Sequence record: OZ035785.1
DNA length: 64,000 nucleotides
Direction: 5' to 3' (one strand)
Source of the DNA: Tequatrovirus BCH953P2
Positions within the stretch are counted from its first letter, which is position 1, and each line of letters opens with the position of its first letter. A program made the position numbers and the translations under genes. The notes beneath the pieces are model-generated. The model was given only the letters and a program-made list of their open reading frames with translations, made no database searches and had not been told where the DNA came from. Positions 902 to 40,957 of this stretch are shown one piece after another.

Positions 902-1861
902 TCACTTCCACTGCATTTCACATGCTAATTGAATGAAAAGATAAGCTAGATGCAATTCAGTATTAGCTGCAATACCATGATACTGATTATTTTCGCCGAC
1001 AATTTCGTACATACGAATAATACTCTGTGGAGTTACACGTGAATAGATTTCTTCGGCAAGTTTACCAACGAACCACGAATAATCAGCTGCATATTTTGGT
1101 GCTAAAGCTCTGAGTTGTTTAACATCTTTATTTTTGAGAGACTCAAGAACATCATCAATAGCACCACGATCGTTAGTAACCAGTGATAAAATACCAGCAT
1201 CCAAAACACCTTTAGATGAATAACTATCGAGCTCGCCAATAGTTTTACGAAAATCAGGAAAATTCTTTTTAACCAAAGCTGCTACAACTTTCATATCAGC
1301 TATAGCAATTCCTTCATGCTTGCAGATTTCAGTCAATCGACGAATCATCTGCTTCATCATTTCAATTTTATCTTCATCGGTCGGTTGACCGAATGTAATA
1401 ACTCGGCAGCGTGACTGAAGCGGTTTAATAATACCATCAATATTGTTAGCAGTAATAATAATACTACAGTTTGAACTATAAGCTTCCATAAAGGAACGAA
1501 GATGTCGCTGAGACTCTGCTAGCCCTGAACGGTCAAATTCATCAATAACGATTACTTTTTGACGACCATCAAATGAAGCTGCACTGGCAAAATTAGTCAA
1601 AGGACCACGAACGAAATCAATTTTACAATCTGATCCATTCACAAACATCATATCAGCATTTACATCATGACACAATGCTTTCGCTACAGTCGTTTTACCT
1701 GTTCCTGGAGAAGGAGAATGAAGAATAATATGTGGAATCTTACCTTTACTTGTAATAGATTTAAAGGTTTCTTTATCAAAGGCGGGAAGAATACATTCAT
1801 CGATAGTAGATGGACGATATTTCTGTTCAAGAATGTGTTCTTTTTCATTTACAGTAATCAT
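902..1861 (-). CDS. 44: Clamp loader large subunit gp44 (AAA+ ATPase)
   Basis: Walker A GTGKTT, Walker B VIVIDEFD; matches remembered T4 gp44 from MITVNEKEH; start adjusted inward from the ORF-track start. Confidence 0.9.
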
Positions 1862-1912
1862 AATTTCCTCATTCAAGTTTTAGTGTAAATTATAAAGGGC
1901 CGAAGCCCTTTA

Positions 1913-2599
1913 TTAAAAATCGTGGGTAGAATCAGCTTCAAGAGCTACCACATAATTCGCGTGTTCACCTTCAAATTTAGCAGCACCTTGTTTACCTTTT
2001 GCCCAGAGCAGAAGTTTATAATTTCCTGGTTGCATTTTCATATTTGCCATATTGATAATGAAATTAAATGTATTTTCACCATCATAATCACCAAGAGTCA
2101 AAGAATATTTAACACGGGTCAGAGCAGAATCTTCTACTTTATTAAAACCGTTAATTACGATTTTACCTTCTTTTACTGTGATAGCAATTGTATCAATCTG
2201 CAGACCACGAGATACACGCAACAGCTGTTGAAGGTCTTCAGCTTTAATTTCGGTAACAACAGATGCTACCGGGAATGGAATTGGTTTATTAGGAGCAACT
2301 ACTGTACTCGGATCGGCTGCTGGCCAAAAAATTGTTGAGCGAGCATCTGCAATTTTGATATTTCCATCTTCTGATTGCGAAATTTCTGCATCATCATTAA
2401 CTAGAGACAGAATACCGAGAAAACCGTTCAAATCGTAAATTGCTACATCAAAATCAATAACGTCAGAAATATTTGCTTCCGCATAAGTTGTACCATTAAC
2501 TGCGCGAGTCATAATAAATTGACCGGATTTAAGCATAATACCAGAGTTAATAGTAGCGAAATTTTTAAGCAGAGCAGTAGTATCTTTAGACAGTTTCAT
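1913..2599 (-). CDS. 45: Sliding clamp gp45
   Basis: 228 aa, begins MKLSKDTTALLKNFATINSG as in T4 gp45; synteny with 44/62. Confidence 0.9.
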   Translation of the reverse strand: MKLSKDTTALLKNFATINSGIMLKSGQFIMTRAVNGTTYAEANISDVIDFDVAIYDLNGFLGILSLVNDDAEISQSEDGNIKIADARSTIFWPAADPSTVVAPNKPIPFPVASVVTEIKAEDLQQLLRVSRGLQIDTIAITVKEGKIVINGFNKVEDSALTRVKYSLTLGDYDGENTFNFIINMANMKMQPGNYKLLLWAKGKQGAAKFEGEHANYVVALEADSTHDF

Positions 2600-2654
2600 G
2601 TAATTTCCTTCAATTCAAATGAGATTTAATTTTATAACTAATTAAATAAAGCAA

Positions 2655-3044
2655 TTAACGATTAAAATCAGCTGCGATTGTTTCGGCAACAATTTGAGCA
2701 GCAACAATCAGACGTTCATCTGCATTGCCGCAATATTCATCTTCAAGGCGTTCACCACATGAAGTCATAATAAATTTAGCACCGGCGTTTAGGGATTCTG
2801 TAGTATGTTTGCGCATTAGTTCAATCCATTTATTACTTACTTCACGATCGATAGCTTCATAATACGCATGACGAGCAGGTGCAGATTTAATTTTGTTCTG
2901 AATAACTTCCATTGCGTTATCAGAAAGAGACAAAACCCATGCTCGACGAATTTTATTTTGGTTTTGTGGATTTGATTCAGAACGCACGTGTTTTGGCTGA
3001 ATATCTTTTACATCAACAGTATAATTCACAGTAATTTTAGTCAT
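2655..3044 (-). CDS. rpbA: RNA polymerase-binding protein RpbA
   Basis: 129 aa ORF in the T4 rpbA position between genes 45 and 46. Confidence 0.7.
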
Positions 3045-3053
3045 AATACACCT

Positions 3054-3242
3054 TTAGTCATAATAATCAGTAACAGTCCAAGCTTCATTTCTATTGGACA
3101 TTATTTTTGTATATTCTGCTTTAAATGCATTCCTAAGCATAGATTCAGTAACTATATGCTCTTCATTAGAAAAATTATTTCTCAGAATATATCGTTTTAT
3201 TTCAGGAATAGTTAATAGATGTTGTCCAGTTGAATATTCCAT
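3054..3242 (-). CDS. Hypothetical small protein (T4 45.2 position)
   Basis: 62 aa ORF, same strand, compact spacing. Confidence 0.4.
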   Translation of the reverse strand: MEYSTGQHLLTIPEIKRYILRNNFSNEEHIVTESMLRNAFKAEYTKIMSNRNEAWTVTDYYD

Positions 3243-3297
3243 GTTTTTCCTCCACAGAGATTATACTCTAATAAATTAAAGCATAATCTCTTATAAA

Positions 3298-4980
3298 TTA
3301 AACCATTACAGTAAATCGACCAACTTTCTTCATTTGAAGATGCTGACCATATGCTTGCGGGTCATGGTCTCTATGTGAAATAACAAAAACATTAGTATTT
3401 TTTAAACTATCTAAAATAGTTGAAATAGCTTTTACACCTTCAACGTCGGTCGCTGAATCAAAAACTTCATCAAGAATTAGTGTGTTTATTTTAACACCTG
3501 AAACTTTTTCAGCAATATCACGCCAAGTAAATAAAAGAGCAATATCAATTCGTGCTTTTTCACCTTGACTGAATGAAGCATAACTAAAATCTTCGCGACC
3601 ACGGGATTTAATTGTCTCATTAAATTCTTCATCTAATGTAAACACATAATCCGCTTCCATTATTTTAAGATAATGGTTAATCTGCTTATTAAATAATGGA
3701 ATGTACTTTTTAATAATAGCACCTTTAATACCAGAATCTTTGAGCATATCAGTCAAAATTCCTCGGTGGTATTTTTCCATTACTAAATTAGTTTTTGTCT
3801 TAACAATTTTATCAAGTTCTTCTTGAAGCAGTGCTATTTCATCAGCATGGTCAATAAACTCAGAAGATGCTTTTTCTATAGCTGCTTTAACTTTTTTGGC
3901 TTTATCTACCGTCGTGATTAGAGATTGCTTTTTATTGCGAATATCATTTGCCAACGACTGTTGGGTTTTAATATTATCTCGGTATTCATCAACAAGAACT
4001 TTTAAATTATCACGATGTGTTGAAAGCTGTTCAAACGAATGCGTACATTCAGAAACTTTATCTTTAATTTTAGAAACAACTTTATCACCGGAACTCAATT
4101 GTGACAAACAGGTTGGACATAATCCACCTTCGTGATACATATTAATGACTTTATTATACGAGTCAATTTTTGATTTAATTAAAAATGCTTCTTGACCGAT
4201 TTTATTAAATGCATCAGTCGGGTCTTCATCTAAAACAATATTAACTAATCTTTCATTAGCTTCTTCTATTTCCGATTTTAGCGTTCTAGCTTCTTTTGCC
4301 AAATCATCATACATATTTTGTAGACGAGTAAGGTTGTCACCCGTTAATTTTTTCTGGCGTTCAACGTTATCATTATATATTTTAATTTGTTGGATAATAC
4401 TATCTTTTTTAACATCAAGCACTTGGTTTTGTGAATTTAATTCACGTATTAGTGCTTTATTAAGCTTATCCATTTCAGCTAGTGTTCCTACCTCAAGCAG
4501 GTCTTCCACAAGCTTTCTTCGTGCAGGGGTCGACAAACCCATGAAAGGGGTATACCCTGCTGTACCAAGGACAACAATCTGCTTGAAACTGGCATATGAC
4601 ATTCCGATAAGCTGTTCAAATTCTGCTTGGAAATCTTTACTGCTGGCAGATTCATTAAGACGTGTACCGTTAACGGTGATTTCGAAAACGTTCGGTTTTT
4701 GTCCTCTTTTGATATAGTACTTTTTCTCATCATATTCCATCCACAGTTCAACTAAAAGTTCTTTCTTATTTGTGCTGTTTATTAATTGACCTTTCTTTAC
4801 ATCACGAAATGGCTTACCAAAAAGCCCAAATGTGATGGCTTCTAGCATAGTAGACTTACCACCGCCATTTCGTCCAGTAATAAGAGTTTTTTGAACCTTA
4901 TCTAATTGAATGTCAACTCCATTTTGACCAACTGACATTATATTTTTATATTTTACTCTATTAAGTTTAAAATTCTTCAC
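3298..4980 (-). CDS. 46: Recombination endonuclease subunit gp46 (SbcC/Rad50-like ATPase)
   Basis: 560 aa; N-terminal Walker A GRNGGGKST, long central coiled coil, C-terminal LILDEVFD motif. Confidence 0.9.
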   Translation of the reverse strand: MKNFKLNRVKYKNIMSVGQNGVDIQLDKVQKTLITGRNGGGKSTMLEAITFGLFGKPFRDVKKGQLINSTNKKELLVELWMEYDEKKYYIKRGQKPNVFEITVNGTRLNESASSKDFQAEFEQLIGMSYASFKQIVVLGTAGYTPFMGLSTPARRKLVEDLLEVGTLAEMDKLNKALIRELNSQNQVLDVKKDSIIQQIKIYNDNVERQKKLTGDNLTRLQNMYDDLAKEARTLKSEIEEANERLVNIVLDEDPTDAFNKIGQEAFLIKSKIDSYNKVINMYHEGGLCPTCLSQLSSGDKVVSKIKDKVSECTHSFEQLSTHRDNLKVLVDEYRDNIKTQQSLANDIRNKKQSLITTVDKAKKVKAAIEKASSEFIDHADEIALLQEELDKIVKTKTNLVMEKYHRGILTDMLKDSGIKGAIIKKYIPLFNKQINHYLKIMEADYVFTLDEEFNETIKSRGREDFSYASFSQGEKARIDIALLFTWRDIAEKVSGVKINTLILDEVFDSATDVEGVKAISTILDSLKNTNVFVISHRDHDPQAYGQHLQMKKVGRFTVMV

Positions 4981-6619: not shown

Positions 6620-7822
6620 TTATTTTGTAATAATGTCAAACTGTTCTTTAAAGCAGAAGCTTGAATCTTGATGCTGATACAAAAATTCATATGCTTTTTC
6701 TCGCTCACGGTCATAAAGAGCTCGGTCAGATGACAGTTCTTTAATACGCTCGAATGTTGATTCCATGTCATTTTCATCAAACCAAACGATACCGCTATCA
6801 TGCGAGGTCAAAGGAGTATTATCAACACGGAATTTTAAATTTTCGCCAGTAGATTTCCAAAATACCGGAATTGTTCCACATGCACCAAGCTCGAGGTGAG
6901 TATATTCTAAAGAGCGCTGTAGATATTTTTTATCCAACTTACTCAACTGATAACCAAATCCAGATTTACTCATACGTTCAAGCATTTCGCTATTTACATA
7001 ACGATCGAGAATTTGCGTTGGTAAATTAGGAGCAATTTTAATTTGGTCTACTTGATGAAGACGATAATACTCGTATGGAATTCCTTTTTCTTTAATAGGA
7101 ATGAACGCTGGAGAACGTTCCAGACCTTCCATAATAGTACTTAGTCCTGCAGGTTTAAGATGTTTTTCGTGAAAATCAAACATCTGATAAAAACCTTTCC
7201 ATGTAGTCGTACGACCAATCCAACGGTTGATATTCATGTTAATTTCAGAAACATCTTTCCAGTAGGTTGATCGAACCTTCGCAATATCCATAGGAGGCTG
7301 AAAGTTGTATACGGTCGGTGCTTCTTCAATATCATCAAACAGAGAAACTGTTTCTGGATACCATTCTTTCATCAGAACTTTATTAAAATCGCCATTATCA
7401 GAATGGCTAAAAATAACATCAGCTCGACGAACAGTTTCTTCTAATCCCAAATTTCGACGCAAAGAAAGAGAAGAATGGTCATGTTGATAAACTACAACAC
7501 GAACCGAAGGTTTAATGTTATCAATAATTTTTTTATAGTTATTAATAGTGTCTTCTTCAACTGAAGTAGCAGGAACTGAATTGATAATTAGAATATCACA
7601 ATCATTTACCAGCTTAAGTGTTTTATCGTATTCTTTTGCCAATAAAACCGGAATTGAAAATGATTTATAATCATGCGCGCAATTACGGGTAAATGATTTA
7701 TCTTTAGCATAAACCAAAGTTACTTCATGACCATTTTTAATAAACCAATCACGCTGCTCAAGAGAAAATTTAGTTACACCACAACCTTCAAGACCTCGAG
7801 CCATAAAAATACATACTTTCAT
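6620..7822 (-). CDS. a-gt: DNA alpha-glucosyltransferase
   Basis: 400 aa; near-identical over most of its length to remembered T4 alpha-glucosyltransferase (CIFMARGLEGCGVTKFSLEQRDWFIKNGHEVTLVYAKDKSF). Confidence 0.9.
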   Translation of the reverse strand: MKVCIFMARGLEGCGVTKFSLEQRDWFIKNGHEVTLVYAKDKSFTRNCAHDYKSFSIPVLLAKEYDKTLKLVNDCDILIINSVPATSVEEDTINNYKKIIDNIKPSVRVVVYQHDHSSLSLRRNLGLEETVRRADVIFSHSDNGDFNKVLMKEWYPETVSLFDDIEEAPTVYNFQPPMDIAKVRSTYWKDVSEINMNINRWIGRTTTWKGFYQMFDFHEKHLKPAGLSTIMEGLERSPAFIPIKEKGIPYEYYRLHQVDQIKIAPNLPTQILDRYVNSEMLERMSKSGFGYQLSKLDKKYLQRSLEYTHLELGACGTIPVFWKSTGENLKFRVDNTPLTSHDSGIVWFDENDMESTFERIKELSSDRALYDREREKAYEFLYQHQDSSFCFKEQFDIITK

Positions 7823-8065
7823 TTAATATCCTCATTGTTTTGGTTTATTTTACCAAAAATTTATAAAGCAATATAGGAGCTGAAGCTCCTATCCGCATAA
7901 TACACCATACAGAGGCTCATTAGAGCTTCTAAATTTTATGCGCTTATATGTTATAGTTCCTTCTGCTTTAGCTTTATCATGAGACTCTTTAAAGAGTCTC
8001 ATGATTTCTACTTTAGAGGAACGAATTTTATTATAATCTATTTCAGAAGTCTGGGTGTTCATCTT

Positions 8066-8272
8066 TCATAACTGCCACCATTTTTTGACTTGATAAGAAT
8101 CAACCCACACTTTCATATTAGGGTCTGCTCTTACAATAGGAGGATTAACTTCTTTAATTGAACTATCATGGTATTCTTTTTCAGAAATTTTCACACAAAG
8201 ATGACCATTCAAAGATTCAGTAAATCCTGCATTAATTTTAAGACGCTTGAATTTTACGTGTGTAAGCATCAA
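8066..8272 (-). CDS. Hypothetical protein
   Basis: 68 aa ORF between a-gt and 55. Confidence 0.35.
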   Translation of the reverse strand: MMLTHVKFKRLKINAGFTESLNGHLCVKISEKEYHDSSIKEVNPPIVRADPNMKVWVDSYQVKKWWQL

Positions 8273-8555
8273 TCATATCCTCAATCTGCGATCTAGTAGT
8301 CTTCCAAAGAATACTGATGAGTTCATCGTTATATGGCTGTTTTAGAATATCCCGACTTTTCTTGATAGCATATTCGTATTGAGCAAAATTATTATTTTCA
8401 GCTGCGATCTGAGCATGCTTATAAAGACGATTCAGTTCGCGTTTGTTTTTAGACAATAACTTATTTGCTTTTCTTTCTGCTTCAAGACGGTTCTTTTCTT
8501 CAATAGAAGAAATAAGCTTTTCCACTTCATCATTAATTTCGGGTTTATCAGTCAT
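8238..8555 (-). CDS. Hypothetical protein
   Basis: 105 aa ORF, helical/charged composition. Confidence 0.4.
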   Translation of the reverse strand: MTDKPEINDEVEKLISSIEEKNRLEAERKANKLLSKNKRELNRLYKHAQIAAENNNFAQYEYAIKKSRDILKQPYNDELISILWKTTRSQIEDMIDAYTRKIQAS

Positions 8556-8556
8556 A

Positions 8557-8775
8557 TTATTTCTCTAATATAAAATAAAAATCATCATCTGTTAAATGAT
8601 ACCGATAGTTTAATTCTACACCATTAGATTTAAAAGCGGTATCATACGGATTTTCTGGATCAATATCAATGTCAAGAGCTAAAACTTCCCTGAGATACAT
8701 TTTAAGTAAATAGGGAATAGCTTCAACTTCAGGTATTTCTTCCAAGAATCCGGAGAGGTTAATCGTTAGCCTCAT
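8557..8775 (-). CDS. Hypothetical protein
   Basis: 72 aa ORF immediately downstream of gene 55. Confidence 0.4.
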
Positions 8776-9316
8776 ATAAAAAATCCAAACTAGGAGAATC
8801 GTCTACAACACTTTTCTTTTCAGCCCCCGGTGTTCTATAGGTTGATTCTTCGTAATGCGTCATTTTATCGTAGATGTCTTGAATAAAAGTTTCATCTACT
8901 AACGCAACCATATCGTCGTCACGACTGTCATAGACATTGTGAACGAAGTAACTATATTTCTTTGCAACTTCCTTACGTTCTTTTTTAATACGTTGGACGA
9001 ATGCATTAAAACAAGCTTGAGTTATATACGCATGTGGGTTTTTATATTTCGTTTCATCAAAATTATGAAGCCCCTTAATAGAAGCTTCTATACCATCTGC
9101 AATCATTTCTTGTTTCCAAGACTGGGTGTATCCTGAAAAGTTGAAACGTTTAGATAAGCCTTCTGCAATAAGCATAATGGCTAATCCGATAGTATCATTC
9201 TGACGAACTACTTTATTTGGGTCTTTATTATTTGCTAATTCTGTTTTCCAATCAATAATAGCTTGTAAAAGCTCTTTATTGTTTACGTAATTATATTTAG
9301 GCTTAGTTTCTGACAT
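8759..9316 (-). CDS. 55: Late-transcription sigma factor gp55
   Basis: Matches remembered T4 gp55 from [23 protein letters not shown]; start placed at that Met. Confidence 0.9.
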
Positions 9317-11273: not shown

Positions 11274-11486
11274 CTATTCCTTACTAAGAGCAGCATTCAA
11301 CTTATTAGTAATTTTATCCAGACGCTCATTAAACTCACTAGAAGATAAGCCCTTTTCTGGAGAAATTAAACTAATCACGAAAAATATAGCAATAAAAGGA
11401 ATAAGGAAAATAGCTCCAACTGCCATAAACAGAAAGAATGTTACAGTTGTAAGAAAATCAGCTAAACCTTTACGAAATTTATACAT
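11274..11486 (-). CDS. Small membrane protein
   Basis: 70 aa with a strongly hydrophobic segment (FLTTVTFFLFMAVGAIFLIPFIAIFFVISLI). Confidence 0.45.
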   Translation of the reverse strand: MYKFRKGLADFLTTVTFFLFMAVGAIFLIPFIAIFFVISLISPEKGLSSSEFNERLDKITNKLNAALSKE

Positions 11487-11604
11487 TTACCTTTACCTTT
11501 AATTGATTAACCAAGCATTGATAAGCACTAAACTATATTGGGAATAAAATTCTGGACCAAAATGAAAAATCATATCATTTATAGTATCCATAATGTAATT
11601 CAAT

Positions 11605-12075
11605 TTAATCATGTTTCCACACCCCATCGGTATTTGACCAAAGTCGCTGATTATCTGATCCTCGCCACAGCTTTTTAGTCGGAAGATTTTTCTCATACTT
11701 CCCATCAATAATAACATCAACATATTTAAGCATTTCTAGTTGTTTAATATCTTCAAACTTATATCCTGTCCACAACCAAATGCTTTTATTGGGATAAAGA
11801 TTTTTTACTGTTTGAACAATGCAATGAATAACATCCCGGTTATCAGGATAGAGAGGGTCACCTCCGGTTATAGTCAATCCTTCTATATAATCATTATTCA
11901 AACATTCAATTAATTGTTCTAGTGTTTCACCAGTGAATGGAATACCATTTCTAACATTCCATGTTGATTTATTATAACACCCTTCGCATTTATGCAAACA
12001 ACCTGTAACGAAAAGAACGGTCCTGCAGCCAGGGCCATTCACAAAATCACAGGGATAAAATCTATCGTAATTCAT
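11605..12075 (-). CDS. nrdG: Anaerobic ribonucleotide reductase activase NrdG (radical SAM)
   Basis: 156 aa; cysteine cluster CRTVLFVTGCLHKCEGC; stop overlaps the nrdD start. Confidence 0.85.
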   Translation of the reverse strand: MNYDRFYPCDFVNGPGCRTVLFVTGCLHKCEGCYNKSTWNVRNGIPFTGETLEQLIECLNNDYIEGLTITGGDPLYPDNRDVIHCIVQTVKNLYPNKSIWLWTGYKFEDIKQLEMLKYVDVIIDGKYEKNLPTKKLWRGSDNQRLWSNTDGVWKHD

Positions 12076-13889
12076 TGATGCTTAACCCTATGCATGATTT
12101 CTTTATTTTTACCGAGATTAAATCCGCGTTCGTTCGGGTTTCCAAGATATCCGCATGTTCTTCTTATTGTGTTCATCTTTTTAGGATCAGTTTCTCCACA
12201 AATAGAACAAACAAATCCGTTTTCAGTAGGAGTCATTTCATGGGTACTTCCGCATGTAAAACATTTATCTACTGGCATGTTAACACCAAAATAATCTAAA
12301 TGTTGTGCAGCATAATCCCATACGGCCTCAAGACCTTTTAAGTTATTTTTCATATCAGGAAGTTCAACATAAGAAATGTGACCACCTGTCGCAATGAAAT
12401 GATACGGCGCTTCACGAGAAATCTTTTCAAACGGAGTAATATTTTCTTCTACTGAAACGTGGAAACTGTTAGTGTACCAGCCTTTATCGGTAACATCTTT
12501 TACGCTTCCATATTTTTCTGTATCGAGTTTACAGAAGCGATAACAAAGGTTTTCAGCAGGAGTAGAATATAAACTAAAAGCAAATCCGGTTCTTTCAGTC
12601 CACTGTTTAAGATGAGCATTCATTTTAGTTAAAATTTCTCGTCCAATATCACGACCGACAAGAATATTCAATTCGTGAATACCAATGTATCCTAGGGACA
12701 CTGAACTTCTACCGTTTTTAAATAACTCAATTATGTCGTCATCAGGTTTAAGACGAACCCCGAATGCACCTTCTTGGTAAAGAATAGGAGCAACAGTAGC
12801 TTTAACTCCTTTTAAGGAACTAATTCTACACATCAAAGCTTCAAAACACAAATCCATTCGTTCATTGAATAATTCAACAAATTTCTGTTCATTGAACTGT
12901 GTTCCAATATAAGAATCTAACGCGATGCGAGGAAGATTCAATGTTACAACACCAAGATTATTACGTCCATCAAGAATTTCATTACCAGTCGAATCTTTCC
13001 ATACGCTCAAGAAACTACGGCAACCCATTGGAGAAACAGGAACAGATGAACCAGTGATAGCTTTATTGTTCTTAGCTGAAATAATATCAGGATACATCCT
13101 TTTGCTTGCACACTCTAGAGCAAGCTGCTTAATATCATAGTTCGGATCGTCTTTGTAAAGATTAACGCCTTCTTCGACGAACATAACAAGCTTAGGGAAA
13201 ATAGGAGTTATCCCATCACGACCAAGACCTTTAATACGATTTTTCAGAATTGCTTTCTGAATCATTCGTTCAGTCCAGTCAGTTCCCGTACCAAATGTAA
13301 TTGTTACAAAAGGTGTTTGCCCGTTTGAACTAAAGAGAGTATTTACTTCATATTCATAAGCTTGGAATGCATCGTATACGTCTTTTTCTGTTTTAGATTG
13401 AGCATAATTCAACGCATCAGCGATTTGCCATTTTTCTGCATCTTCAATATGTTTTGCATAGGTGCGTTTAACATAAGGAGAAAGTACTTTATCTACATTC
13501 GCAAAAGTCGTTCCGCCATATTGATGGGAAGCAACCTGTGCAGTAATTTGTGCCATAATTGCAGTAGCAACACCGATTGATTTAGGAGTTTCAATCTGTG
13601 CATTACCGAGCTTAAATCCGTTCTCAAGCATTCCTTTTAAATCTACTAAACAACAATTAGTAAAAGGCAATGATATACTGTAATCTAAATCATGAAAATG
13701 AATTAACCCGGCATTATGAGCATTTACAATATGACTTGGAAGAATACTGCAAGCGATATGTTTAGAAACAATACCGGCCATTAAATCTCTTTTTGTTGGA
13801 AAGACACGAGAATCTTTGTTGGCGTTTTCGGTATTTAATTCTTTATCTTTATTTGAAATAAAATTTAAAACATCTTTCTCTAAAGACAT
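12072..13889 (-). CDS. nrdD: Anaerobic ribonucleoside-triphosphate reductase NrdD, uninterrupted
   Basis: 605 aa continuous ORF; C-terminal glycyl-radical motif RRTCGYLG and zinc-ribbon cysteines CFTCGS...CSIC. Confidence 0.9.
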   Translation of the reverse strand: MSLEKDVLNFISNKDKELNTENANKDSRVFPTKRDLMAGIVSKHIACSILPSHIVNAHNAGLIHFHDLDYSISLPFTNCCLVDLKGMLENGFKLGNAQIETPKSIGVATAIMAQITAQVASHQYGGTTFANVDKVLSPYVKRTYAKHIEDAEKWQIADALNYAQSKTEKDVYDAFQAYEYEVNTLFSSNGQTPFVTITFGTGTDWTERMIQKAILKNRIKGLGRDGITPIFPKLVMFVEEGVNLYKDDPNYDIKQLALECASKRMYPDIISAKNNKAITGSSVPVSPMGCRSFLSVWKDSTGNEILDGRNNLGVVTLNLPRIALDSYIGTQFNEQKFVELFNERMDLCFEALMCRISSLKGVKATVAPILYQEGAFGVRLKPDDDIIELFKNGRSSVSLGYIGIHELNILVGRDIGREILTKMNAHLKQWTERTGFAFSLYSTPAENLCYRFCKLDTEKYGSVKDVTDKGWYTNSFHVSVEENITPFEKISREAPYHFIATGGHISYVELPDMKNNLKGLEAVWDYAAQHLDYFGVNMPVDKCFTCGSTHEMTPTENGFVCSICGETDPKKMNTIRRTCGYLGNPNERGFNLGKNKEIMHRVKHQ

Positions 13890-14701
13890 AATTCTAATTT
13901 ATCCTTTTGAAATTCTTCGTCTAAATATGGGTTCCAACCCATTTTAAACCTTTTGATGAAATTATCAATTCTAAATTTCGGTAAGTTTAAATCCGCAAAA
14001 ATAGATGATTTACTTTTAAAATCTGGACCTAAATAATCATATAAAATTTCTGCGTATTTTAACCATAATATATAAGTACCAGATTTAATTGCTCTCGGAG
14101 TTTTCCAAGGTTTTACACCATACATCGGATTTCCACTTCCTTTATGCCTGATAGAAGATGAAATTCCAATTTTAATTTTAGCTTCCTCTGTATGCGAAAA
14201 TCCATGATGTGGATTTTCTTTCCAATATTTTTTAGAAGCTTCTGATATTTTCTTTCTGGCTAAATTAGTATGATGCTTTCCATAAAATCCATGATTTTTA
14301 CCTTTATTACGATTTCTTTTAATCATGGTTATTGATTGCTTTTTTCTAGTTTCTTTAGAAGGAGAAACACCGTACGTTGTAAATTGACCATCAGCATATG
14401 CTAAATTAAAATACTCTTTATTCCATATATCTTTTTCTATATTCTTTTGAAATTCAGCTTCAATGCTAGTTATTTGCTCATCTCCGACTAATTGAAAATA
14501 TAATATTTCAACTTTCGGCGTTTCTTTCAACAGGGCTTTTTGAAATTCGGAAGATGACGAAGACGAATAATAAAATTTACCATTTTTATCAATAATATTC
14601 GTTCCGTCAAAAGCGCAATTAGTTTTACTTCCAATGTAATAATATGGCGGGGTTTTAGCATTAATTCTATTAATAAATGATAGTTTATATACTACATTCA
14701 T
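13880..14701 (-). CDS. Free-standing GIY-YIG homing endonuclease-like protein (seg-like)
   Basis: N-terminal GIY-YIG signature (VYKLSF...YYYIGSK); repeated NUMOD-like modules (GKNHGFYGKHHT, HHGFSHTEEAKIKIG, GSGNPMYG); overlaps nrdD start and gene 49 stop. Confidence 0.65.
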   Translation of the reverse strand: MNVVYKLSFINRINAKTPPYYYIGSKTNCAFDGTNIIDKNGKFYYSSSSSSEFQKALLKETPKVEILYFQLVGDEQITSIEAEFQKNIEKDIWNKEYFNLAYADGQFTTYGVSPSKETRKKQSITMIKRNRNKGKNHGFYGKHHTNLARKKISEASKKYWKENPHHGFSHTEEAKIKIGISSSIRHKGSGNPMYGVKPWKTPRAIKSGTYILWLKYAEILYDYLGPDFKSKSSIFADLNLPKFRIDNFIKRFKMGWNPYLDEEFQKDKLELCL

Positions 14702-15171
14702 TTTAAACTCTTTCTAAGCTGCTTCTTAAATGAAGCTATTAATTGTGTTTTGGTGTCAGATTCATTATATTCAAATCCTCTTTGAAGCATCTCAGCCATC
14801 ATTTCCTCTTTTCCTAAACGAGAAAATTCCTTTGATTTATCTCCAACGAAGTTAGGGTGAATATTATTTTGGGTGTAATCGGATTTTAAATAAGTAAGTA
14901 AATTTTCTAACCATTCAAGATAATCAACACCTTGTCCCTTTAAGCCAGAACGATTAAATTTATGCTTCATTTGACCTTCTGCGGCATTGCAGAGATTACA
15001 AAGCAATCCACGTACCTTTCCTGCTTTTGGTCCATTTAATTCATGGTCATGGTCAAGGTGATTAGCTTGAACGTCAGGATTTAGTTCTCGTTGGCAAATT
15101 AAGCATTTACCATTTTGTGCATCATAAAATTTCTGTTTTTCTTCTTTATATAATTTGCCAGTCAATAACAT
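14698..15171 (-). CDS. 49: Endonuclease VII (Holliday junction resolvase)
   Basis: 157 aa matching remembered T4 endo VII (MLLTGKLYKEEKQKFYDAQNGKCLICQREL...HLDHDH). Confidence 0.9.
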   Translation of the reverse strand: MLLTGKLYKEEKQKFYDAQNGKCLICQRELNPDVQANHLDHDHELNGPKAGKVRGLLCNLCNAAEGQMKHKFNRSGLKGQGVDYLEWLENLLTYLKSDYTQNNIHPNFVGDKSKEFSRLGKEEMMAEMLQRGFEYNESDTKTQLIASFKKQLRKSLK

Positions 15172-24868: not shown

Positions 24869-25326
24869 TCAGCCTTATATTCAATAACAGGACATACTTT
24901 AGCTTTACGAGCTTTTAAAAATTCGACGATAATAGATTTCTTGGGTTGAATAGGAGGTAAACCTTTATACGCCCTATCAATATTTTCTACATGTAAAGCA
25001 TAATCCTTTTTCCATTTATAATCTTTATATTTTTCATGCAGTTGTACAGGAATAACAAATGAACCGATAATAAGTAAAACAAGCAAAATGGCAAGTATAA
25101 ATGCTGATGGAATAAGAGTCCATAAACTACCAAAAATAAGCCATTTCTGTATGATTTCTGCGCAGATGATAGTTAGACCTACGAGTATAGTACATCCGAA
25201 AAAAGAAACGAAAAATGTAGGGATAACAATAGACCAAAAGTATGCGCACAGCGTCTTAGGTCGTTGCCATTCATCGTTAAACAATTTGAATAATTTATAG
25301 TGCCAAGAGTTTTCATTAATAATCAT
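24865..25326 (-). CDS. Multi-pass membrane protein
   Basis: 153 aa with three hydrophobic stretches. Confidence 0.45.
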   Translation of the reverse strand: MIINENSWHYKLFKLFNDEWQRPKTLCAYFWSIVIPTFFVSFFGCTILVGLTIICAEIIQKWLIFGSLWTLIPSAFILAILLVLLIIGSFVIPVQLHEKYKDYKWKKDYALHVENIDRAYKGLPPIQPKKSIIVEFLKARKAKVCPVIEYKAE

Positions 25327-25328
25327 AA

Positions 25329-25850
25329 TTATCCTTTCATTGAAGGCGTAACGGTTGTTAAATACTTAATCATAGCTTCAGCTTCTGATTTTGATAATGA
25401 AATTTCTCCATTGTTTTGACGAATAGAAATAAAATCCGGATGACGGTCACCACCAGCTTTTAAAACACACATATAAGTATCAGTTTCACCTTCAATATTT
25501 GAAATGATTGAAGCAGTTCCGCATGAATGTGGTTTTTGATAAATCAATACAGCTTTTCTTCCACCATTTGACTGCTCATAGGCTTTTAATACATCAAACA
25601 AATCAGTTCTTTTATCAATAGCTAAGATGTTATTTTCATCTTCAATGTTAAATCCTTCGGATACTTCATAAAGCGTTACCCATAAATCACCGATGTCAAT
25701 AACAGCATTTACTTTTCCACGGCTTTCAAGAGTATGACAAATTTTCTTGATTTCATCATAACTCATTTTAATAATATCATCTCCTTGAATAAGGAAGATG
25801 TCATTTTTAAATTCAACGCGAATTAAACCGCTTCCACTTGAAATAAACAT
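25329..25850 (-). CDS. Hypothetical protein, tandem paralogue A
   Basis: 173 aa; C-terminus SKSEAEAMIKYLTTVTPSMKG resembles the neighbour's C-terminus. Confidence 0.45.
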   Translation of the reverse strand: MFISSGSGLIRVEFKNDIFLIQGDDIIKMSYDEIKKICHTLESRGKVNAVIDIGDLWVTLYEVSEGFNIEDENNILAIDKRTDLFDVLKAYEQSNGGRKAVLIYQKPHSCGTASIISNIEGETDTYMCVLKAGGDRHPDFISIRQNNGEISLSKSEAEAMIKYLTTVTPSMKG

Positions 25851-33827: not shown

Positions 33828-33981
33828 TTTTGTTCTCTCTAGGTTTGGGCCATTCCATGGCGCATGAATTGTCCATTTCTGTATTTACCCATTACCGCAC
33901 TTGGGCTCGACCTTATTACAGGTTGGCGGGAATCCCTCACAGAATCATGAGGTCCAGCTTGTTCCCATATTTCTTATTTGC

Positions 33982-34455
33982 TTATTTGAATGATTTAACG
34001 TACTGAATAGAACCTTTACTATTCACAAAGGCAATTTTACCATTTTTGTTATACATGGTAGCAGTACGCTGATAGCCATAAGTTTGTTTACCAGATTGAT
34101 AACCAACTAATGCAAAATTATCTTCACCCATTTTATTCTGTTTAGCGCGAATGCGTTCATGGCCATGTGCCATAAGAACCTTAGCATCACCAGTTGCAAT
34201 GGATCTACGAGTTTTTTCATCTTCAACTGTATTAACAAAGTCGTCAAATGAATCAAATTTAGCATGAGATTTATTATACAGTTTTCCATCTACTGCATAA
34301 TTATATCCCTGTACATCCATCTCAACTTCTGTACCATCATCCAATACAGCAGTGATTTTTTGACCTTTTTTAAATTTCAAAAGATCAGTAAAAGATTCAG
34401 CAATAATTTGAGAATTAATAGCTGCTTCAGTGATAAATTCTTGATATGTTTTCAT
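33982..34455 (-). CDS. Internal (head-packaged) protein with capsid-targeting N-terminus
   Basis: 157 aa beginning MKTYQEFITEA, the conserved T4 internal-protein targeting sequence ending in Glu-Ala. Confidence 0.65.
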   Translation of the reverse strand: MKTYQEFITEAAINSQIIAESFTDLLKFKKGQKITAVLDDGTEVEMDVQGYNYAVDGKLYNKSHAKFDSFDDFVNTVEDEKTRRSIATGDAKVLMAHGHERIRAKQNKMGEDNFALVGYQSGKQTYGYQRTATMYNKNGKIAFVNSKGSIQYVKSFK

Positions 34456-34464
34456 ATGTTTCCT

Positions 34465-34881
34465 TTAAATGTAAATATTTTTACCGTAATACTTATACCA
34501 ATGTGGTTTCATTAAAATTTTTTCATCAAGTCGTTGTTGACTCAATTTAATAGCTGATTTGCATGGATTATAATCATTTTTCCATTCTACTGGAATATCG
34601 CTGATGTCAGGAACTTCAGTATCTTTTATACTGAACCCTCGTTTTAAGCATTCCGTTATAATGTCCGATTGACGCTTTCGCAAAAATTCTAACTTATCGT
34701 AAAAGAAAGTAACATGACCAGAACCTAAAATAAATTTAGAAGATATTTTAAAATCTTTAACGCGCTTACCATTTGCCACATGCTTACGAACTATACCAAA
34801 AACACGTGGCAATTCACGATATTCTGCGATTAAATGTTGATCAGCAAGTTCAGATACTAAAGTCAAATTAATACGAGTCAT
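34465..34881 (-). CDS. denV: Endonuclease V (pyrimidine-dimer DNA glycosylase)
   Basis: 138 aa matching remembered T4 endo V ([28 protein letters not shown]). Confidence 0.9.
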
Positions 34882-34906
34882 TTTATCCCTCCAAGTAACT
34901 GTGAAT

Positions 34907-39493: not shown

Positions 39494-40048
39494 TTACCGG
39501 TAGCGACCCGGTTTCTCATTTGGTATTTCAAATTGTGTAGATTTAGTATCTAATTTTTTAACTATGGAACTTATGTCATGAAAGAAAAACCATTCACCAT
39601 TTATATGGTCCTGATTATAAATGCTGTGCATATATTTTTCAAGTTCTACTGCATCCTGGGAATATCTAAATGATACTATTTTAAAACTTTTAAACGGTGA
39701 AAATGTATTTGCTGTTATAACTCTAACATCAGGTTCTATACTTCTTCCTATTTTATAATAATTAGGATTTGTAGTATCTACCATTATGTATACGAAAGCC
39801 TGTCGATAGCTTTTTTCTATATCAAATTCATCTTTAAATTTCAAAAGATTTAGGGCGGCAGTCCTACAAAATACTTTCCATTTTGACAAGCGTTTGGCTT
39901 CAGTCATAGAAAAGAATTTTTTCTTATCTGTTATTTTAAGAAAAGCAACATTTTCAATTAGTTCTTGTGTTATTTCAAAATTACCATGGTATATTAATCC
40001 AGCTTTTATAGCCAAATTAATTTGGTCCCAGTCTACATCACTTCTCAT
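39494..40048 (-). CDS. GIY-YIG-like (T5orf172-type) domain protein embedded beside the tRNA genes
   Basis: 184 aa; central FVYIMVDTTNPNYYKIGRS followed by E and YNQDHINGEWFFF resembles the GIY-YIG/T5orf172 core; T4 carries the homing endonuclease segB in this neighbourhood. Confidence 0.45.
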   Translation of the reverse strand: MRSDVDWDQINLAIKAGLIYHGNFEITQELIENVAFLKITDKKKFFSMTEAKRLSKWKVFCRTAALNLLKFKDEFDIEKSYRQAFVYIMVDTTNPNYYKIGRSIEPDVRVITANTFSPFKSFKIVSFRYSQDAVELEKYMHSIYNQDHINGEWFFFHDISSIVKKLDTKSTQFEIPNEKPGRYR

Positions 40049-40069: not shown

Positions 40070-40146
40070 TGGTCAGGGTGAAAGGATTCTAACCTTTAAC
40101 CTGCGGTTTAGAGGACCGCTACTCTATACAATTGAGTTACACCCCG
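40070..40146 (-). tRNA. tRNA-like element, anticodon UCU (Arg) if folded as tRNA; atypical
   Basis: Hand fold: acceptor CGGGGTG/CACCCTG, anticodon stem GCGGT/ACCGC, loop CCUCUAA, T arm AAAGG-TTAGAAT-CCTTT, 3-prime CCA encoded; D loop lacks GG and position 33 is C. Confidence 0.35.
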
Positions 40147-40272
40147 TAATTAGTTCACAGCAATACCTACTCCAACAATCAAGATGTCTTCACACGAAAT
40201 TAAGAGAAGTGTGATCAGTTCAACCCCTATAATCGCGTCAAGTAGATATTAATGTGACAACTGTCACAAGTT

Positions 40273-40347
40273 TGGCGGACATGCATGGATTCGAACCATG
40301 GACCAATTGATTAACAGTCAACTGCTCTACCACTGAGCTACACATCC
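40273..40347 (-). tRNA. tRNA-Asn (anticodon GUU)
   Basis: Hand fold of reverse complement GGATGTGTAGCTCAGTGGTAGAGCAGTTGACTGTTAATCAATTGGTCCATGGTTCGAATCCATGCATGTCCGCCA; loop CUGUUAA; CCA encoded. Confidence 0.7.
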
Positions 40348-40351
40348 AAAT

Positions 40352-40438
40352 TGGTGGGGAGTGGTGGAGTCGAACCACCCGAGTCGCAATGACAATGAAT
40401 TTACAGTCCACCCCGCTACCCCTACCGGATAACTCCCC
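40352..40438 (-). tRNA. tRNA-Tyr (anticodon GUA), long variable arm
   Basis: Acceptor GGGGAGT/ACTCCCC, loop CUGUAAA, long variable arm, T arm GGTGG-TTCGACT-CCACC, CCA encoded; 5-prime end lies in a C12 run. Confidence 0.6.
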
Positions 40439-40458
40439 CCCCCCCCTAATTCTTAATT

Positions 40459-40533
40459 TGGTGGCCCTGGGTGGAATTGAACCACCATCTGGCGATTATG
40501 AGTCGCTTGCTTGAACCTTCCAGCTACAGGGCC
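40459..40533 (-). tRNA. tRNA with CAU anticodon (Ile2 lysidine-type or Met)
   Basis: Acceptor GGCCCTG/CAGGGCC, anticodon loop CUCAUAA, T arm GGTGG-TTCAATT-CCACC, CCA encoded. Confidence 0.6.
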
Positions 40534-40534
40534 T

Positions 40535-40610
40535 TGGTGCTGATTGACGGAATCGAACCGCCGACCTTCTCATTACAAGTGAGTTGCTCTACCTACTGAG
40601 CTAAATCAGC
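40535..40610 (-). tRNA. tRNA-Thr (anticodon UGU)
   Basis: Acceptor GCTGATT/AATCAGC, D arm GCTC-AGTAGGTA-GAGC, loop CUUGUAA, CCA encoded. Confidence 0.7.
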
Positions 40611-40615
40611 AAAAC

Positions 40616-40705
40616 TGGCGGAGGCGATAGGATTTGAACCTATGAGTCGCCGGAGCGACTGCCGGTTTTCAAGACCGGTGCATTAAACCACTCTGCCACG
40701 CCTCC
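40616..40705 (-). tRNA. tRNA-Ser (anticodon UGA), long variable arm
   Basis: Acceptor GGAGGCG/CGCCTCC, anticodon stem CCGGT/ACCGG with loop CUUGAAA, long variable arm, CCA encoded. Confidence 0.75.
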
Positions 40706-40707
40706 AG

Positions 40708-40781
40708 TCTCCGCGGCAGGATTTGAACCTACGACATTCTGCTCCCAAAGCAGACGCTCTACCAAACTGAGCTACACGGAG
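40708..40781 (-). tRNA. tRNA-Pro (anticodon UGG)
   Basis: Acceptor CTCCGTG/CGCGGAG, anticodon stem TCTGC/GCAGA, loop UUUGGGA; CCA not encoded; 2 nt spacer to tRNA-Ser. Confidence 0.7.
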
Positions 40782-40791
40782 TAAATTAAAT

Positions 40792-40865
<74 letters not shown>

Positions 40866-40870
40866 AAATT

Positions 40871-40957
40871 TGGTGCGAGAAGTGGGACTCGAACCCACAA
40901 GGAAATCATTCCGCAGCATTTTAAGTGCTGTGCCTTTACCAATTTGACCATTCTCGC
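40871..40957 (-). tRNA. tRNA-Leu (anticodon UAA), long variable arm
   Basis: Acceptor GCGAGAA/TTCTCGC, anticodon stem CAGCA/TGCTG with loop CUUAAAA, long variable arm, CCA encoded. Confidence 0.75.

What the first reader, a model, noticed from the sequence alone, without database searches (positions are those of the whole stretch)
12072..14701. Uninterrupted nrdD with a free-standing GIY-YIG endonuclease gene wedged between gene 49 and nrdD
Seen in sequence: nrdD is a single 605-codon ORF; the 273 aa GIY-YIG ORF (VYKLSF...YYYIGSK plus repeated NUMOD-like modules) overlaps the nrdD start by 10 nt and the gene 49 stop by 4 nt. Established: T4 nrdD carries a group I intron encoding I-TevII, and free-standing seg-type endonucleases spread by targeting neighbouring genes in phages that lack them. 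Inference: this may be an intron-less lineage in which a free-standing endonuclease targets the nrdD region.
Basis: partly seen in the sequence, partly recalled or inferred. Interest (0 to 1): 0.45.

Follow-up and report, generated by a model that had tools for sequence, protein, structure and literature searches.

The report
SegG-like homing endonuclease beside nrdD
This T4-like phage carries an uncharacterised, apparently mobile selfish endonuclease gene between gene 49 and the anaerobic ribonucleotide reductase gene nrdD, together with a foreign first 240 bases of nrdD; it is a new member of a well-known kind, not a new kind.

Summary
On the minus strand, gene 49 (14698-15171), a 273-codon ORF (13880-14701) and an uninterrupted 605-codon nrdD (12072-13889) overlap by 4 and 10 nt. 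T4 has no gene here: its nrdD ATG sits in the same ATGA overlap with the gene 49 stop.

The ORF is a paralogue of T4 SegG, a free-standing GIY-YIG homing endonuclease. It is 40% identical in the catalytic domain and has a homologous C-terminal domain, with three NUMOD3 modules in between.

It occurs in 48 of about 690 related phage records at 97-99.8% identity. All 48 also carry a diverged first ~240 nt of nrdD (35% nt difference from T4, versus ~2% in the rest of the gene). No other record has this allele except one that keeps a deletion scar of the endonuclease gene.

The sequences on both sides are closest to phages that lack the gene (T2, RB27). Decayed, truncated and deleted copies exist elsewhere.

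The gene coexists with the nrdD intron and with nrdG/nrdD endonucleases in some relatives, so "intron-less lineage" is not the explanation.

The most likely mechanism is homing into the 5' part of T4-type nrdD, with the linked foreign nrdD segment giving immunity. Cleavage has not been tested.

The parts
13880..14701 (-). Free-standing SegG-family GIY-YIG homing endonuclease gene (273 codons)
   Evidence: ORF. Its only T4 hit is SegG: 40% identity over aa 1-126, E 5e-26. PHROG 7504 'homing endonuclease', 6e-34. Found in 48 phage records at 96.8-99.8% identity. pN/pS is mostly below 0.4.
14396..14701 (-). Catalytic domain (aa 1-102): VYK...YYIGSK motif, invariant E81 and N99
   Evidence: AlphaFold model with pLDDT 92.8 and beta-beta-alpha-beta-alpha-alpha topology plus insertions. 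The only PDB match with TM above 0.5 is the I-TevI catalytic domain 1LN0, at TM 0.52/0.57, but E is 2.9, which is not significant. hhalign against a canonical Seg/I-TevI profile gives 89.8% probability and E 1.8e-6, pairing E81 with E75 and N99 with N90.
14123..14320 (-). Central linker with NUMOD3 repeats (about aa 128-193)
   Evidence: Pfam NUMOD3 at 1.1e-8, three stretches at a permissive threshold. The family profile hits the I-TevI DNA-binding domain 1I3J at E 1.1e-5.
13883..14119 (-). C-terminal domain (aa 195-273), homologous to the SegG C-terminus; presumed DNA-binding specificity domain
   Evidence: Local alignment to the T4 SegG C-terminal region (KPWKT..RA...GW.P..D.E...ELC) scores 77.5, against shuffles of 27.8 +/- 5.8 with a maximum of 52. 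The match to SegG-like P0004 is stronger. There is no Pfam hit. The DNA-binding role is inferred.
13650..13889 (-). Foreign or diverged 5' tract of nrdD (first ~240 nt, 80 codons) that always travels with the endonuclease gene
   Evidence: 85 of 240 nt and 29 of 80 aa differ from T4, against about 2% difference downstream. The tract ends at the same point in all six alleles compared. At 95% identity or more it occurs only in the 48 records with the gene, plus OLB35. The next-best protein identity in any phage is 68%.
12072..13889 (-). nrdD, uninterrupted and chimeric: foreign 5' 240 nt plus ordinary Tequatrovirus remainder
   Evidence: Pfam NRDD at 4.7e-171. The 3' 1275 nt are 97.3-98.4% identical to phages lacking the gene, such as T2 and RB27.
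13880..13889 (-). 10-nt overlap between the nrdD ATG and the endonuclease stop codon (probable translational coupling)
   Evidence: Sequence read. The nearest Shine-Dalgarno-like AAGGA lies 12 nt upstream of the ATG. A similar overlap is kept in the distant locus L014. Coupling is inferred.
14698..14701 (-). ATGA overlap of the gene 49 stop with the endonuclease start, the position held by the nrdD start in T4, HP3.2 and RB69
   Evidence: Junction alignment; annotations.
14698..15171 (-). Gene 49 (endonuclease VII), the upstream flank. Homology to phages lacking the gene runs right up to its stop codon.
   Evidence: Pfam. BLAST against T4 and HP3.2 resumes exactly at 14698. The nearest relatives of this flank lack the endonuclease gene.
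13325..13365 (-). Empty nrdD intron insertion site (after nrdD nt 538, window 13352|13351), ordinary intron-less allele
   Evidence: identical to the intron-less HP3.2 allele. The intron-containing T4 and G8 carry 6-7 silent changes just downstream.
12072..12075 (-). Empty nrdG/nrdD junction (the slot holding mobC in T4, and HNH or Seg-type genes in relatives)
   Evidence: nrdG start and nrdD stop overlap. T4 mobC. Bas43, F26, FL18 and HP3.2.

Best explanation
The 273-codon ORF is a free-standing homing endonuclease gene of the SegG branch of the GIY-YIG family. It forms one mobile cassette of about 1.05 kb (window 13650-14701) with a foreign copy of the first ~240 nt of nrdD.

Proposed mechanism (inferred, by analogy with SegG, SegF and SegE):
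1. In a mixed infection the enzyme cuts the T4-type nrdD of a co-infecting phage that lacks the gene. The cut is probably within the first ~240 nt, possibly around nt 165-240.
2. The break is repaired from the genome that carries the gene, using homology in the conserved 3' end of gene 49 and in nrdD downstream of nt ~240.
3. This copies the endonuclease gene together with the diverged nrdD 5' end.
4. The diverged tract would no longer contain the recognition sequence, so the carrier would be immune.

The gene has no promoter of its own. Its ATG takes over the ATGA-coupled start site that nrdD uses in T4. nrdD is then started from an ATG 10 nt inside the 3' end of the endonuclease gene, probably by termination-reinitiation coupling.

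Shown: the anatomy, the family relationship, the complete linkage with the nrdD tract, the patchy distribution, and the decayed, truncated and deleted copies elsewhere.

Inferred: enzymatic activity, the target site, immunity and translational coupling.
For: 1. Family. The only T4 relative is SegG (40% identity, E 5e-26). The C-terminal domain is also SegG-like (z about 8.6). There are NUMOD3 modules like those of I-TevI. The catalytic-domain model has the GIY-YIG topology, and its only TM>0.5 hit is I-TevI. hhalign gives 89.8% probability.

2. Absence from T4, HP3.2 and RB69, where nrdD starts in the same ATGA overlap.

3. Patchy distribution. There are 48 records at 96.8-99.8% identity, among about 690 records whose nrdD 3' part is at least 90% identical. 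The nearest relatives of both flanks lack the gene.

4. Complete linkage. The same 48 records, and no intact-nrdD phage without a trace of the gene, carry the diverged 240-nt nrdD tract. The tract ends at the same point in all six alleles compared. Synonymous divergence within it is very high, for example 13 nt changes but 1 aa change in nt 61-120. This indicates an imported segment, not recent mutation.

5. Transfer across genera. Mosigvirus FL18 has the gene at 97% identity, and Mosigvirus OLB35 has the tract at 98%. Their gene 49 is only 81-82% identical to the window.

6. Life-cycle relics.
- OLB35 nrdD begins MNVVYKL, the endonuclease's first 7 codons, fused to the linked nrdD allele.
- FL18 has endonuclease aa 1-203 fused to the last ~15 aa of NrdD.
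- Metagenomic L014 has gene 49, then a relic of nrdD codons 1-55, then a broken homologue (58% identity), then a complete nrdD.

7. Purifying selection on intact copies.
Against: - No cleavage, inheritance or expression data exist for this protein. I found no paper on it in the held library.
- The Pfam GIY-YIG model does not match, and the Foldseek E-values are not significant.
- The canonical catalytic Arg of I-TevI cannot be aligned. The family has other invariant basic residues, R12 and K26.
- Some free-standing endonucleases cut their own genome as well. I recall this for SegH and Hef from the abstract of Sandegren et al. 2005, which is not held, so it is unverified here. If so, a diverged tract need not mean immunity. 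It could simply be the footprint of one old illegitimate insertion that recombination cannot separate from the gene because the tract is 35% diverged.
- The pN/pS estimates rest on few substitutions, and two close pairs give 0.84 and 1.44.
- OLB35 is an 'UNVERIFIED' GenBank record.
Confidence: 0.7

Rival explanations
1. The gene is a real SegG-like endonuclease gene but is now inactive or domesticated, like T4 mobA or I-TevIII. It persists by linkage. Its distribution reflects one old insertion followed by ordinary recombination and repeated loss, not ongoing homing.
For: The identical junctions and tract end in all copies point to a single insertion event. Decay and loss are documented. The atypical catalytic motif is missed by Pfam. 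There is no experimental evidence.
Against: All 48 full-length copies keep an intact 273-codon frame, and pN/pS is mostly 0.04-0.36. The cassette is 97-99.8% identical in backgrounds whose flanks are closer to phages lacking the gene, and it occurs in two genera. That pattern is hard to obtain without active spread. SegG, with the same atypical motif, is recorded as an active endonuclease in the T4 review.
Confidence: 0.15
2. The endonuclease targets the nrdD intron insertion site or its neighbourhood, about 540 bp away. It would either compete with I-TevII or mobilise the intron in trans, as in mobE/I-TevIII trans-homing or the free-standing enzyme that cuts the psbA intron site in cyanophages.
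For: Free-standing endonucleases can cut hundreds of bp from their gene, and co-conversion in T4 reaches up to about 2 kb (PMC2790892). The gene lies 538 nt from the intron site and coexists with the intron in G8 and F26.
Against: The window's intron-site sequence is the same as in intron-less phages that lack the gene. The sequence that co-varies with the gene is nrdD nt 1-240, not the intron site. Most carriers have no intron. The protein shows no similarity to I-TevII. In L014 the insertion point is nrdD codon 55.
Confidence: 0.07
3. The protein's main role is not homing. It could be a DNA-binding regulator of 49/nrdD expression, or a nuclease used against competing phages or in defence evasion, kept because it benefits the phage.
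For: I-TevI doubles as a transcriptional autorepressor (PMC2988022). A 2026 paper reports SegB helping immune evasion (PMC13096335 abstract). nrdD translation here appears tied to the endonuclease reading frame.
Against: Only about 7% of relatives carry the gene. It decays and is lost in several lineages. Nothing in the locus suggests a regulatory target. All features fit the selfish-element pattern.
Confidence: 0.06

Closest known systems
SegG of phage T4 (free-standing GIY-YIG homing endonuclease between genes 32 and 59; Liu et al. 2003, cited in PMC2790892)
   Same: The same unusual catalytic domain (MN.VY...PPYYYIGSK..NC, 40% identity). The C-terminal domain is homologous. Both are free-standing, promoter-less cassettes between conserved genes. 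In both, a cleavage site some distance inside the neighbouring gene is reported (SegG) or expected (here).
   Different: The locus is 49/nrdD, not 32/59. It is 63 aa longer, with three NUMOD3 modules inserted between the two domains. The C-terminal domain is strongly diverged, so a different target is expected. It carries a replacement 5' end of its target gene. It is untested biochemically.
SegH and mobC (endonuclease genes in the nrdG/nrdD gap; Sandegren et al. 2005, paper not held; T4 table in PMC2988022)
   Same: Free-standing endonuclease genes flanking nrdD in T-even phages, patchily distributed. [quoted passage not shown]
   Different: They occupy the other end of nrdD. The Seg-type gene found there in F26 and FL18 (probably SegH) belongs to the SegA-E branch and shows no BLAST similarity to this ORF. 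mobC is an HNH enzyme. The window has that slot empty.
I-TevII (GIY-YIG endonuclease in the T4 nrdD group I intron)
   Same: The same host gene and the same superfamily. Both are absent from many T-even phages.
   Different: I-TevII is intron-encoded, 538 nt into nrdD. It has no detectable pairwise similarity to this ORF. The two elements occur independently and sometimes together.
SegF and SegE 'intronless homing' / localized marker exclusion; 'nuclease genes occupy boundaries of genetic exchange' (PMC10448857)
   Same: A selfish endonuclease gene with a tightly linked tract of divergent flanking sequence. It sits at a sharp switch in sequence relatedness, and there is evidence of transfer between related phages.
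   Different: Here the linked tract is a 35%-diverged replacement of the target gene's first 80 codons. The element also takes over the target gene's translation start.
Illegitimate double-strand-break repair during intron acquisition (Parker, Belisle and Belfort 1999, cited in PMC2790892)
   Same: The L014 arrangement (relic nrdD 5' end, endonuclease gene, complete nrdD) looks like homology-driven repair on one side of the break only, which leaves a duplication.
   Different: This is seen in a natural metagenomic phage with a free-standing gene. It is inferred from sequence only.

Membership tests
GIY-YIG nuclease superfamily | N-terminal GIY ... YIG motif pair on two beta strands | tested here: met
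   The motif is VYK (Y5) ... YYIG (Y22, G24). Both lie on predicted strands 2-8 and 21-26. The spacing is 17 aa, not the usual 10-11, because of an inserted helix.
GIY-YIG nuclease superfamily | Catalytic Glu and Asn (I-TevI E75, N90) and catalytic Arg (R27) | tested here: inconclusive
   E81 and N99 are invariant and pair with E75 and N90 in hhalign. No residue aligns with R27. The family has invariant R12 and K26 at other positions.
GIY-YIG nuclease superfamily | The fold and curated profile recognise the domain | tested here: inconclusive
   Pfam PF01541 gives no hit at E<=10. Foldseek finds nothing at E<=0.001, but I-TevI 1LN0 is the only hit with TM above 0.5, at 0.52/0.57. hhalign probability is 89.8%. 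TIGR01453 'group I intron endonuclease' scores 23.6 bits, below its cut-off of 56.
SegG subfamily of T4-type Seg endonucleases | Sequence homology to SegG over the catalytic and C-terminal domains | tested here: met
   BLASTP gives 40% identity over 126 aa, E 5e-26, and the best T4 hit is reciprocal. The C-terminal alignment scores 77.5, against shuffles of 27.8 +/- 5.8.
Free-standing homing endonuclease gene (functional class) | Extra gene between conserved neighbours, sporadically present among close relatives, not following flank phylogeny | tested here: met
Free-standing homing endonuclease gene (functional class) | Linked divergent flank (co-conversion or immunity tract) next to the gene | tested here: met
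   The 240-nt nrdD tract is linked in 48 of 48 records.
Free-standing homing endonuclease gene (functional class) | Site-specific cleavage of the allele lacking the gene, and super-Mendelian inheritance in mixed infection | not testable with these tools
   This needs cleavage assays and phage crosses. No report was found in the held literature.
Intron-encoded endonuclease (I-TevII type) | [quoted passage not shown] | tested here: not met
   Rfam finds no Intron_gpI in the window, and the positive control G8 scores 105 bits. The ORF lies between genes. It has no similarity to I-TevII.
SegH (Sandegren et al. 2005) | Seg-type gene replacing mobC between nrdG and nrdD | tested here: not met
   In the window nrdG and nrdD overlap, so that slot is empty, and the ORF is at the 49/nrdD end. 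The Seg-type gene in that slot in F26 and FL18 is unrelated by BLAST. The published SegH sequence itself could not be retrieved.

The most novel reading that the evidence does not exclude
The element is more than an inserted endonuclease gene. It is a 'target-gene 5'-end replacement cassette': it brings its own, cleavage-resistant copy of the first 80 codons of nrdD, takes over nrdD's translation start, and makes nrdD translation depend on reading through the endonuclease frame. The host gene would then be partly hostage to the selfish gene, and clean loss would require an in-frame fusion such as the MNVVYKL-NrdD scar in OLB35. The relic in L014 would place the cleavage site at about nrdD nt 165-240. 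The conservation of that T4-type sequence in both Tequatrovirus and Mosigvirus would explain spread between genera.
Probability: 0.25. Interest if true: 0.55.

Novelty: new member of a known kind. Interest (0 to 1): 0.38.

Why it matters
This adds a third independent homing-endonuclease niche around T-even nrdD: the 49/nrdD junction, alongside the intron and the nrdG/nrdD gap. It also adds a second locus for the little-studied SegG branch.

The public genomes already hold a natural series of life-cycle stages:
- intact copies (the window and 47 other records);
- a copy coexisting with the intron (G8);
- a truncated copy with nrdD deleted (FL18);
- a precise-loss scar (OLB35);
- a pseudogene with a duplicated target 5' end (L014).

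That series makes the locus a convenient test bed for how free-standing endonucleases pick target sites, gain immunity and are lost.

There is also a practical point. NrdD in these phages is a chimera whose first 80 residues are 36% different from T4 NrdD.

None of this changes current concepts. It is a well-behaved example of known biology.

Tried and rejected
- Pfam and NCBIfam could not confirm GIY-YIG. Pfam gave only NUMOD3, and TIGR01453 scored below its cut-off.
- Foldseek with the full-length model gave only noise, because the model is an extended multi-domain chain with pTM 0.41. I repeated it with the catalytic domain alone.
- I looked for a donor lineage of the diverged nrdD tract by blastn and tblastn against 50,697 phage records. 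None was found: the next-best hit is 68% aa identity. The L014 allele is only slightly closer to the window than T4 is, 51 versus 45 identities over 80 aa.
- At first I read OLB35 and FL18 as having imported the whole nrdG-nrdD block from a Tequatrovirus. I rejected this after comparison with RB69. nrdG-nrdD is about 92% identical between the two genera anyway, and only the first ~300 nt of OLB35 nrdD are window-like.
- I searched for a T4 late promoter (TATAAATA) or a convincing sigma-70 promoter for the endonuclease gene. There is none near it, and promoter-like hits are at chance level. The 'promoter' annotated by a depositor in phage Lutter lies across the ORF's start codon and is only a prediction.
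- The short DNA hit in Proteus phage Pm5461 is another SegG-like gene, located in the uvsX region. It is not an nrdD-linked copy.
- The SegH paper (PMC1275590) is not in the held library.
- I considered identity with SegH and rejected it on position and sequence.
Full report
**Observation**

The window is from a T4-like phage, about 93-98% identical to T4 along its length. On the minus strand, one search lists:
- nrdG, 11605-12075
- nrdD, 12072-13889 (605 codons, one ORF)
- a 273-codon ORF, 13880-14701
- gene 49, 14698-15171

The sequence shows AAAATGAATG, where the gene 49 stop and the ORF's ATG share 4 nt. It also shows ATGTCTTTAG, the nrdD ATG to the ORF's stop, a 10-nt overlap. Pfam confirms NrdD, endonuclease VII and the NrdG activase. 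For the ORF it finds NUMOD3 only.

**No intron**

Window nrdD aligns codon for codon with spliced T4 nrdD (577 of 606 translated positions, counting the stop, are identical). The T4 intron site falls after nt 538, which is window 13352|13351. The sequence there is the ordinary intron-less allele, also seen in the intron-less phage HP3.2. The intron-containing T4 and G8 carry 6-7 silent changes just downstream. Rfam finds no group I intron in the 64-kb window, but finds one at 105 bits in the G8 locus used as a positive control.

**What T4 and other relatives have at this locus**

In T4 the order is nrdG, mobC, nrdD (with intron and I-TevII), gene 49. The nrdD ATG lies in an ATGA overlap with the gene 49 stop. 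HP3.2 and RB69 have the same 49/nrdD junction. In the window the extra ORF's ATG occupies exactly that position. nrdD then starts 10 nt before the ORF ends.

All combinations of the three nrdD-associated elements exist:

| Phage | Gene at 49/nrdD | nrdD intron | nrdG/nrdD gap |
|---|---|---|---|
| Window, PTE-Eco15, MLP2 | yes | no | empty |
| G8 | yes | yes, ORF 99.6% identical to I-TevII | empty |
| Bas43 | yes | no | 279-aa HNH gene |
| F26 | yes | yes | Seg-type gene |
| T4 | no | yes | mobC |
| HP3.2 | no | no | mobC |

The ORF is therefore independent of the intron. It does not mark an intron-less lineage.

**What the protein is**

- Against all T4 Seg, Mob and I-Tev proteins, it hits only SegG: 40% identity over aa 1-126, E 5e-26. 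SegG in turn hits only this ORF and its truncated FL18 copy.
- The last ~80 residues are also homologous to the SegG C-terminus (score 77.5, against shuffles of 27.8 +/- 5.8).
- The middle of the protein carries three NUMOD3 modules. As a family profile, it matches the I-TevI DNA-binding domain 1I3J at E 1e-5.
- A search of 5.8 billion proteins found a small family sharing the MN.VY...PPYYYIGSK..NC catalytic domain, joined to varied C-terminal parts.
- Invariant residues in that domain include Y5, Y22, G24, E81 and N99.
- The domain model is confident (pLDDT 92.8) and has GIY-YIG topology.
- Foldseek gives no significant E-value, but the only PDB hit with TM above 0.5 is the I-TevI catalytic domain.
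- A profile-profile comparison with canonical Seg/I-TevI domains gives 89.8% probability and pairs E81/N99 with I-TevI E75/N90.
- The Pfam GIY-YIG model does not match, and the canonical Arg cannot be placed.

I therefore file it as a SegG-family member with confidence. Within the GIY-YIG superfamily some features are inconclusive.

**Distribution**

- The ORF's DNA is in 48 phage records at full length, at 96.8-99.8% identity. About 42 are distinct phages. There is also a truncated copy in FL18.
- About 690 records have an nrdD 3' part at least 90% identical to the window. Roughly 7% of relatives therefore carry the gene.
- The 59 best matches to the window's nrdD 3' 1275 nt all lack the gene (T2, RB27, D5505 and others). 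The first carrier ranks 60th.
- Of the 60 best matches to the 49-pin flank, only one is a carrier.
- Carriers are therefore not a clade by flanking sequence.
- Among six alleles, pN/pS is mostly 0.04-0.36, and all frames are intact.

**The linked nrdD tract**

Compared with T4, the first 240 nt of window nrdD have 85 mismatches and 29 aa changes. The remaining 1578 nt have about 2% mismatches and no aa change. Synonymous differences inside the tract are dense, so it is an old, imported sequence, not a product of recent mutation.

All six carriers compared switch from 'foreign' to 'ordinary' at the same point, about nt 240, at the conserved PFTNCCLVDLK codons. In the phage collection the tract occurs at 95% identity or more in exactly the same 48 records, plus OLB35. 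The next-best protein identity anywhere is 68%, so no donor is known.

On the gene 49 side, homology to phages lacking the gene runs right up to the stop codon. The mobile unit is therefore about 1.05 kb: the endonuclease gene plus 240 nt of foreign nrdD.

**Relics elsewhere**

1. OLB35 (Mosigvirus, an 'UNVERIFIED' record) has no endonuclease gene, but its nrdD begins ATGAATGTAGTATATAAACTAT. These are the endonuclease's first 7 codons (MNVVYKL), fused in frame to the linked nrdD allele (98% identity). Its gene 49 is 82% identical to the window, and its nrdD beyond nt ~300 is as RB69-like as it is window-like. This is a deletion scar.
2. FL18 (Mosigvirus) has endonuclease aa 1-203 fused to the last ~15 residues of NrdD. 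nrdD is gone, and a Seg-type gene sits next to nrdG.
3. A metagenomic contig from a distant T4-like phage (L014, about 68% nt identity) has this order: gene 49; a 55-codon relic of an nrdD 5' end, starting in the usual ATGA overlap; a homologue of the endonuclease (58% identity), broken by a stop after codon 50; then a complete nrdD whose ATG again overlaps the endonuclease 3' end.

So the pairing of the endonuclease gene with an nrdD 5' end is old and occurs in very different phages. In L014 the element sits inside nrdD.

**Mechanism**

The best-supported reading is classical intron-less homing.
- The enzyme cuts T4-type nrdD near its 5' end. The L014 relic suggests a site between about nt 165 and 240.
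- Repair from the carrier genome uses homology in the conserved end of gene 49 and in nrdD beyond nt 240.
- The gene and its diverged nrdD 5' end are copied together.
- The diverged tract would protect the carrier.

The T4-type 5' sequence is conserved in Tequatrovirus and Mosigvirus. This fits the presence of the cassette in both genera.

No late promoter lies near the gene, and sigma-70-like matches in the region are no more frequent than in shuffled sequence. The gene thus appears to be a promoter-less cassette, translated from nrdD's former start site. nrdD is probably translated by coupling.

Activity, target, immunity and coupling are all inferences.

**Comparison with known systems, and novelty**

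SegG is the closest relative. The review of T4 mobile elements lists it as an active free-standing GIY-YIG enzyme. SegH and mobC occupy the other end of nrdD, and I-TevII occupies the intron.

No paper in the held library describes an endonuclease gene at the 49/nrdD junction. GenBank depositors label it 'homing endonuclease', 'hypothetical protein' or, once, 'SegG homing endonuclease'.

It is a new, uncharacterised member of a known kind. Its special points are the replacement of the target gene's 5' end, the takeover of the start site, and the unusually complete set of natural life-cycle stages.

Noticed in passing
L012 (Escherichia phage FL18, PP400780.1) 2617-4108: nrdD is entirely deleted. 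The 49-side endonuclease (aa 1-203) is fused in frame to the last ~15 residues of NrdD (...NLGKMKEMVKRVKHA). A 276-aa SegA-E-type endonuclease gene lies directly next to nrdG. This phage has therefore lost the anaerobic reductase catalytic subunit but kept nrdG.
   Followed up: partly
L011 (Escherichia phage OLB35, MH992122.1, 'UNVERIFIED') 3219-3240: nrdD starts with the endonuclease's first seven codons (MNVVYKL), fused to the endonuclease-linked nrdD allele. This is an in-frame deletion scar of the endonuclease gene in a Mosigvirus background.
   Followed up: yes
L014 (Logan SRR27536177 contig) 1718-4712: An unknown distant T4-like phage has this order: gene 49; a 55-codon relic of the nrdD 5' end; a broken homologue of the endonuclease (stop after codon 50, then P0002); and a complete nrdD. 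It looks like one-sided homologous repair that left a duplicated target 5' end.
   Followed up: partly
window 39494-40048 (-), among tRNA genes 40073-41031: A 184-aa ORF with MUG113/T5orf172 domains (a GIY-YIG-related nuclease family) sits beside the tRNA cluster, about where T4 has segB. Rfam finds 10 tRNA genes here, whereas the T4 record annotates 8.
   Followed up: partly
window 7813-7838, 12055-12075, 24869-25832, 48611-48616 versus T4: Compared with T4, the window lacks mobB, mobC, mobD and segC (plus gene 5.3). The mobD position holds unrelated ORFs of 153 and 173 aa. This genome's set of endonuclease genes is largely different from T4's.
   Followed up: partly
window 33970-34892 versus T4 64942-66454: The denV region is only 78.6% identical to T4. 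The T4 internal protein genes ipII and ipIII have no counterpart, and about 620 bp of unrelated sequence is present.
   Followed up: no
L010 2066-2905, L008 2073-2807, L013 1590-2222 (nrdG/nrdD gap in relatives): The nrdG/nrdD gap holds at least three unrelated endonuclease genes in different phages. HP3.2 and T4 have mobC. Bas43 has a 279-aa HNH protein whose N-terminus copies the first residues of NrdG (MNYDRFYPCDFVN). F26 and FL18 have a Seg-type gene, probably SegH. The F26 copy is annotated as N-terminally shortened, without the GIY-YIG motif.
   Followed up: partly
window 11286-13830 versus L019 (RB69) 6663-9203: nrdG-nrdD is about 92% identical between Tequatrovirus and Mosigvirus, while neighbouring genes (49, nrdH side) are 77-81% identical. 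The anaerobic reductase module is much more conserved, or more often exchanged, than its surroundings.
   Followed up: no
window 13290-13350 (nrdD nt 540-600): Intron-containing alleles (T4, G8) differ from intron-less ones (the window, HP3.2) by 6-7 silent substitutions within about 25 nt downstream of the intron site. F26, which has the intron, has an intermediate pattern.
   Followed up: partly
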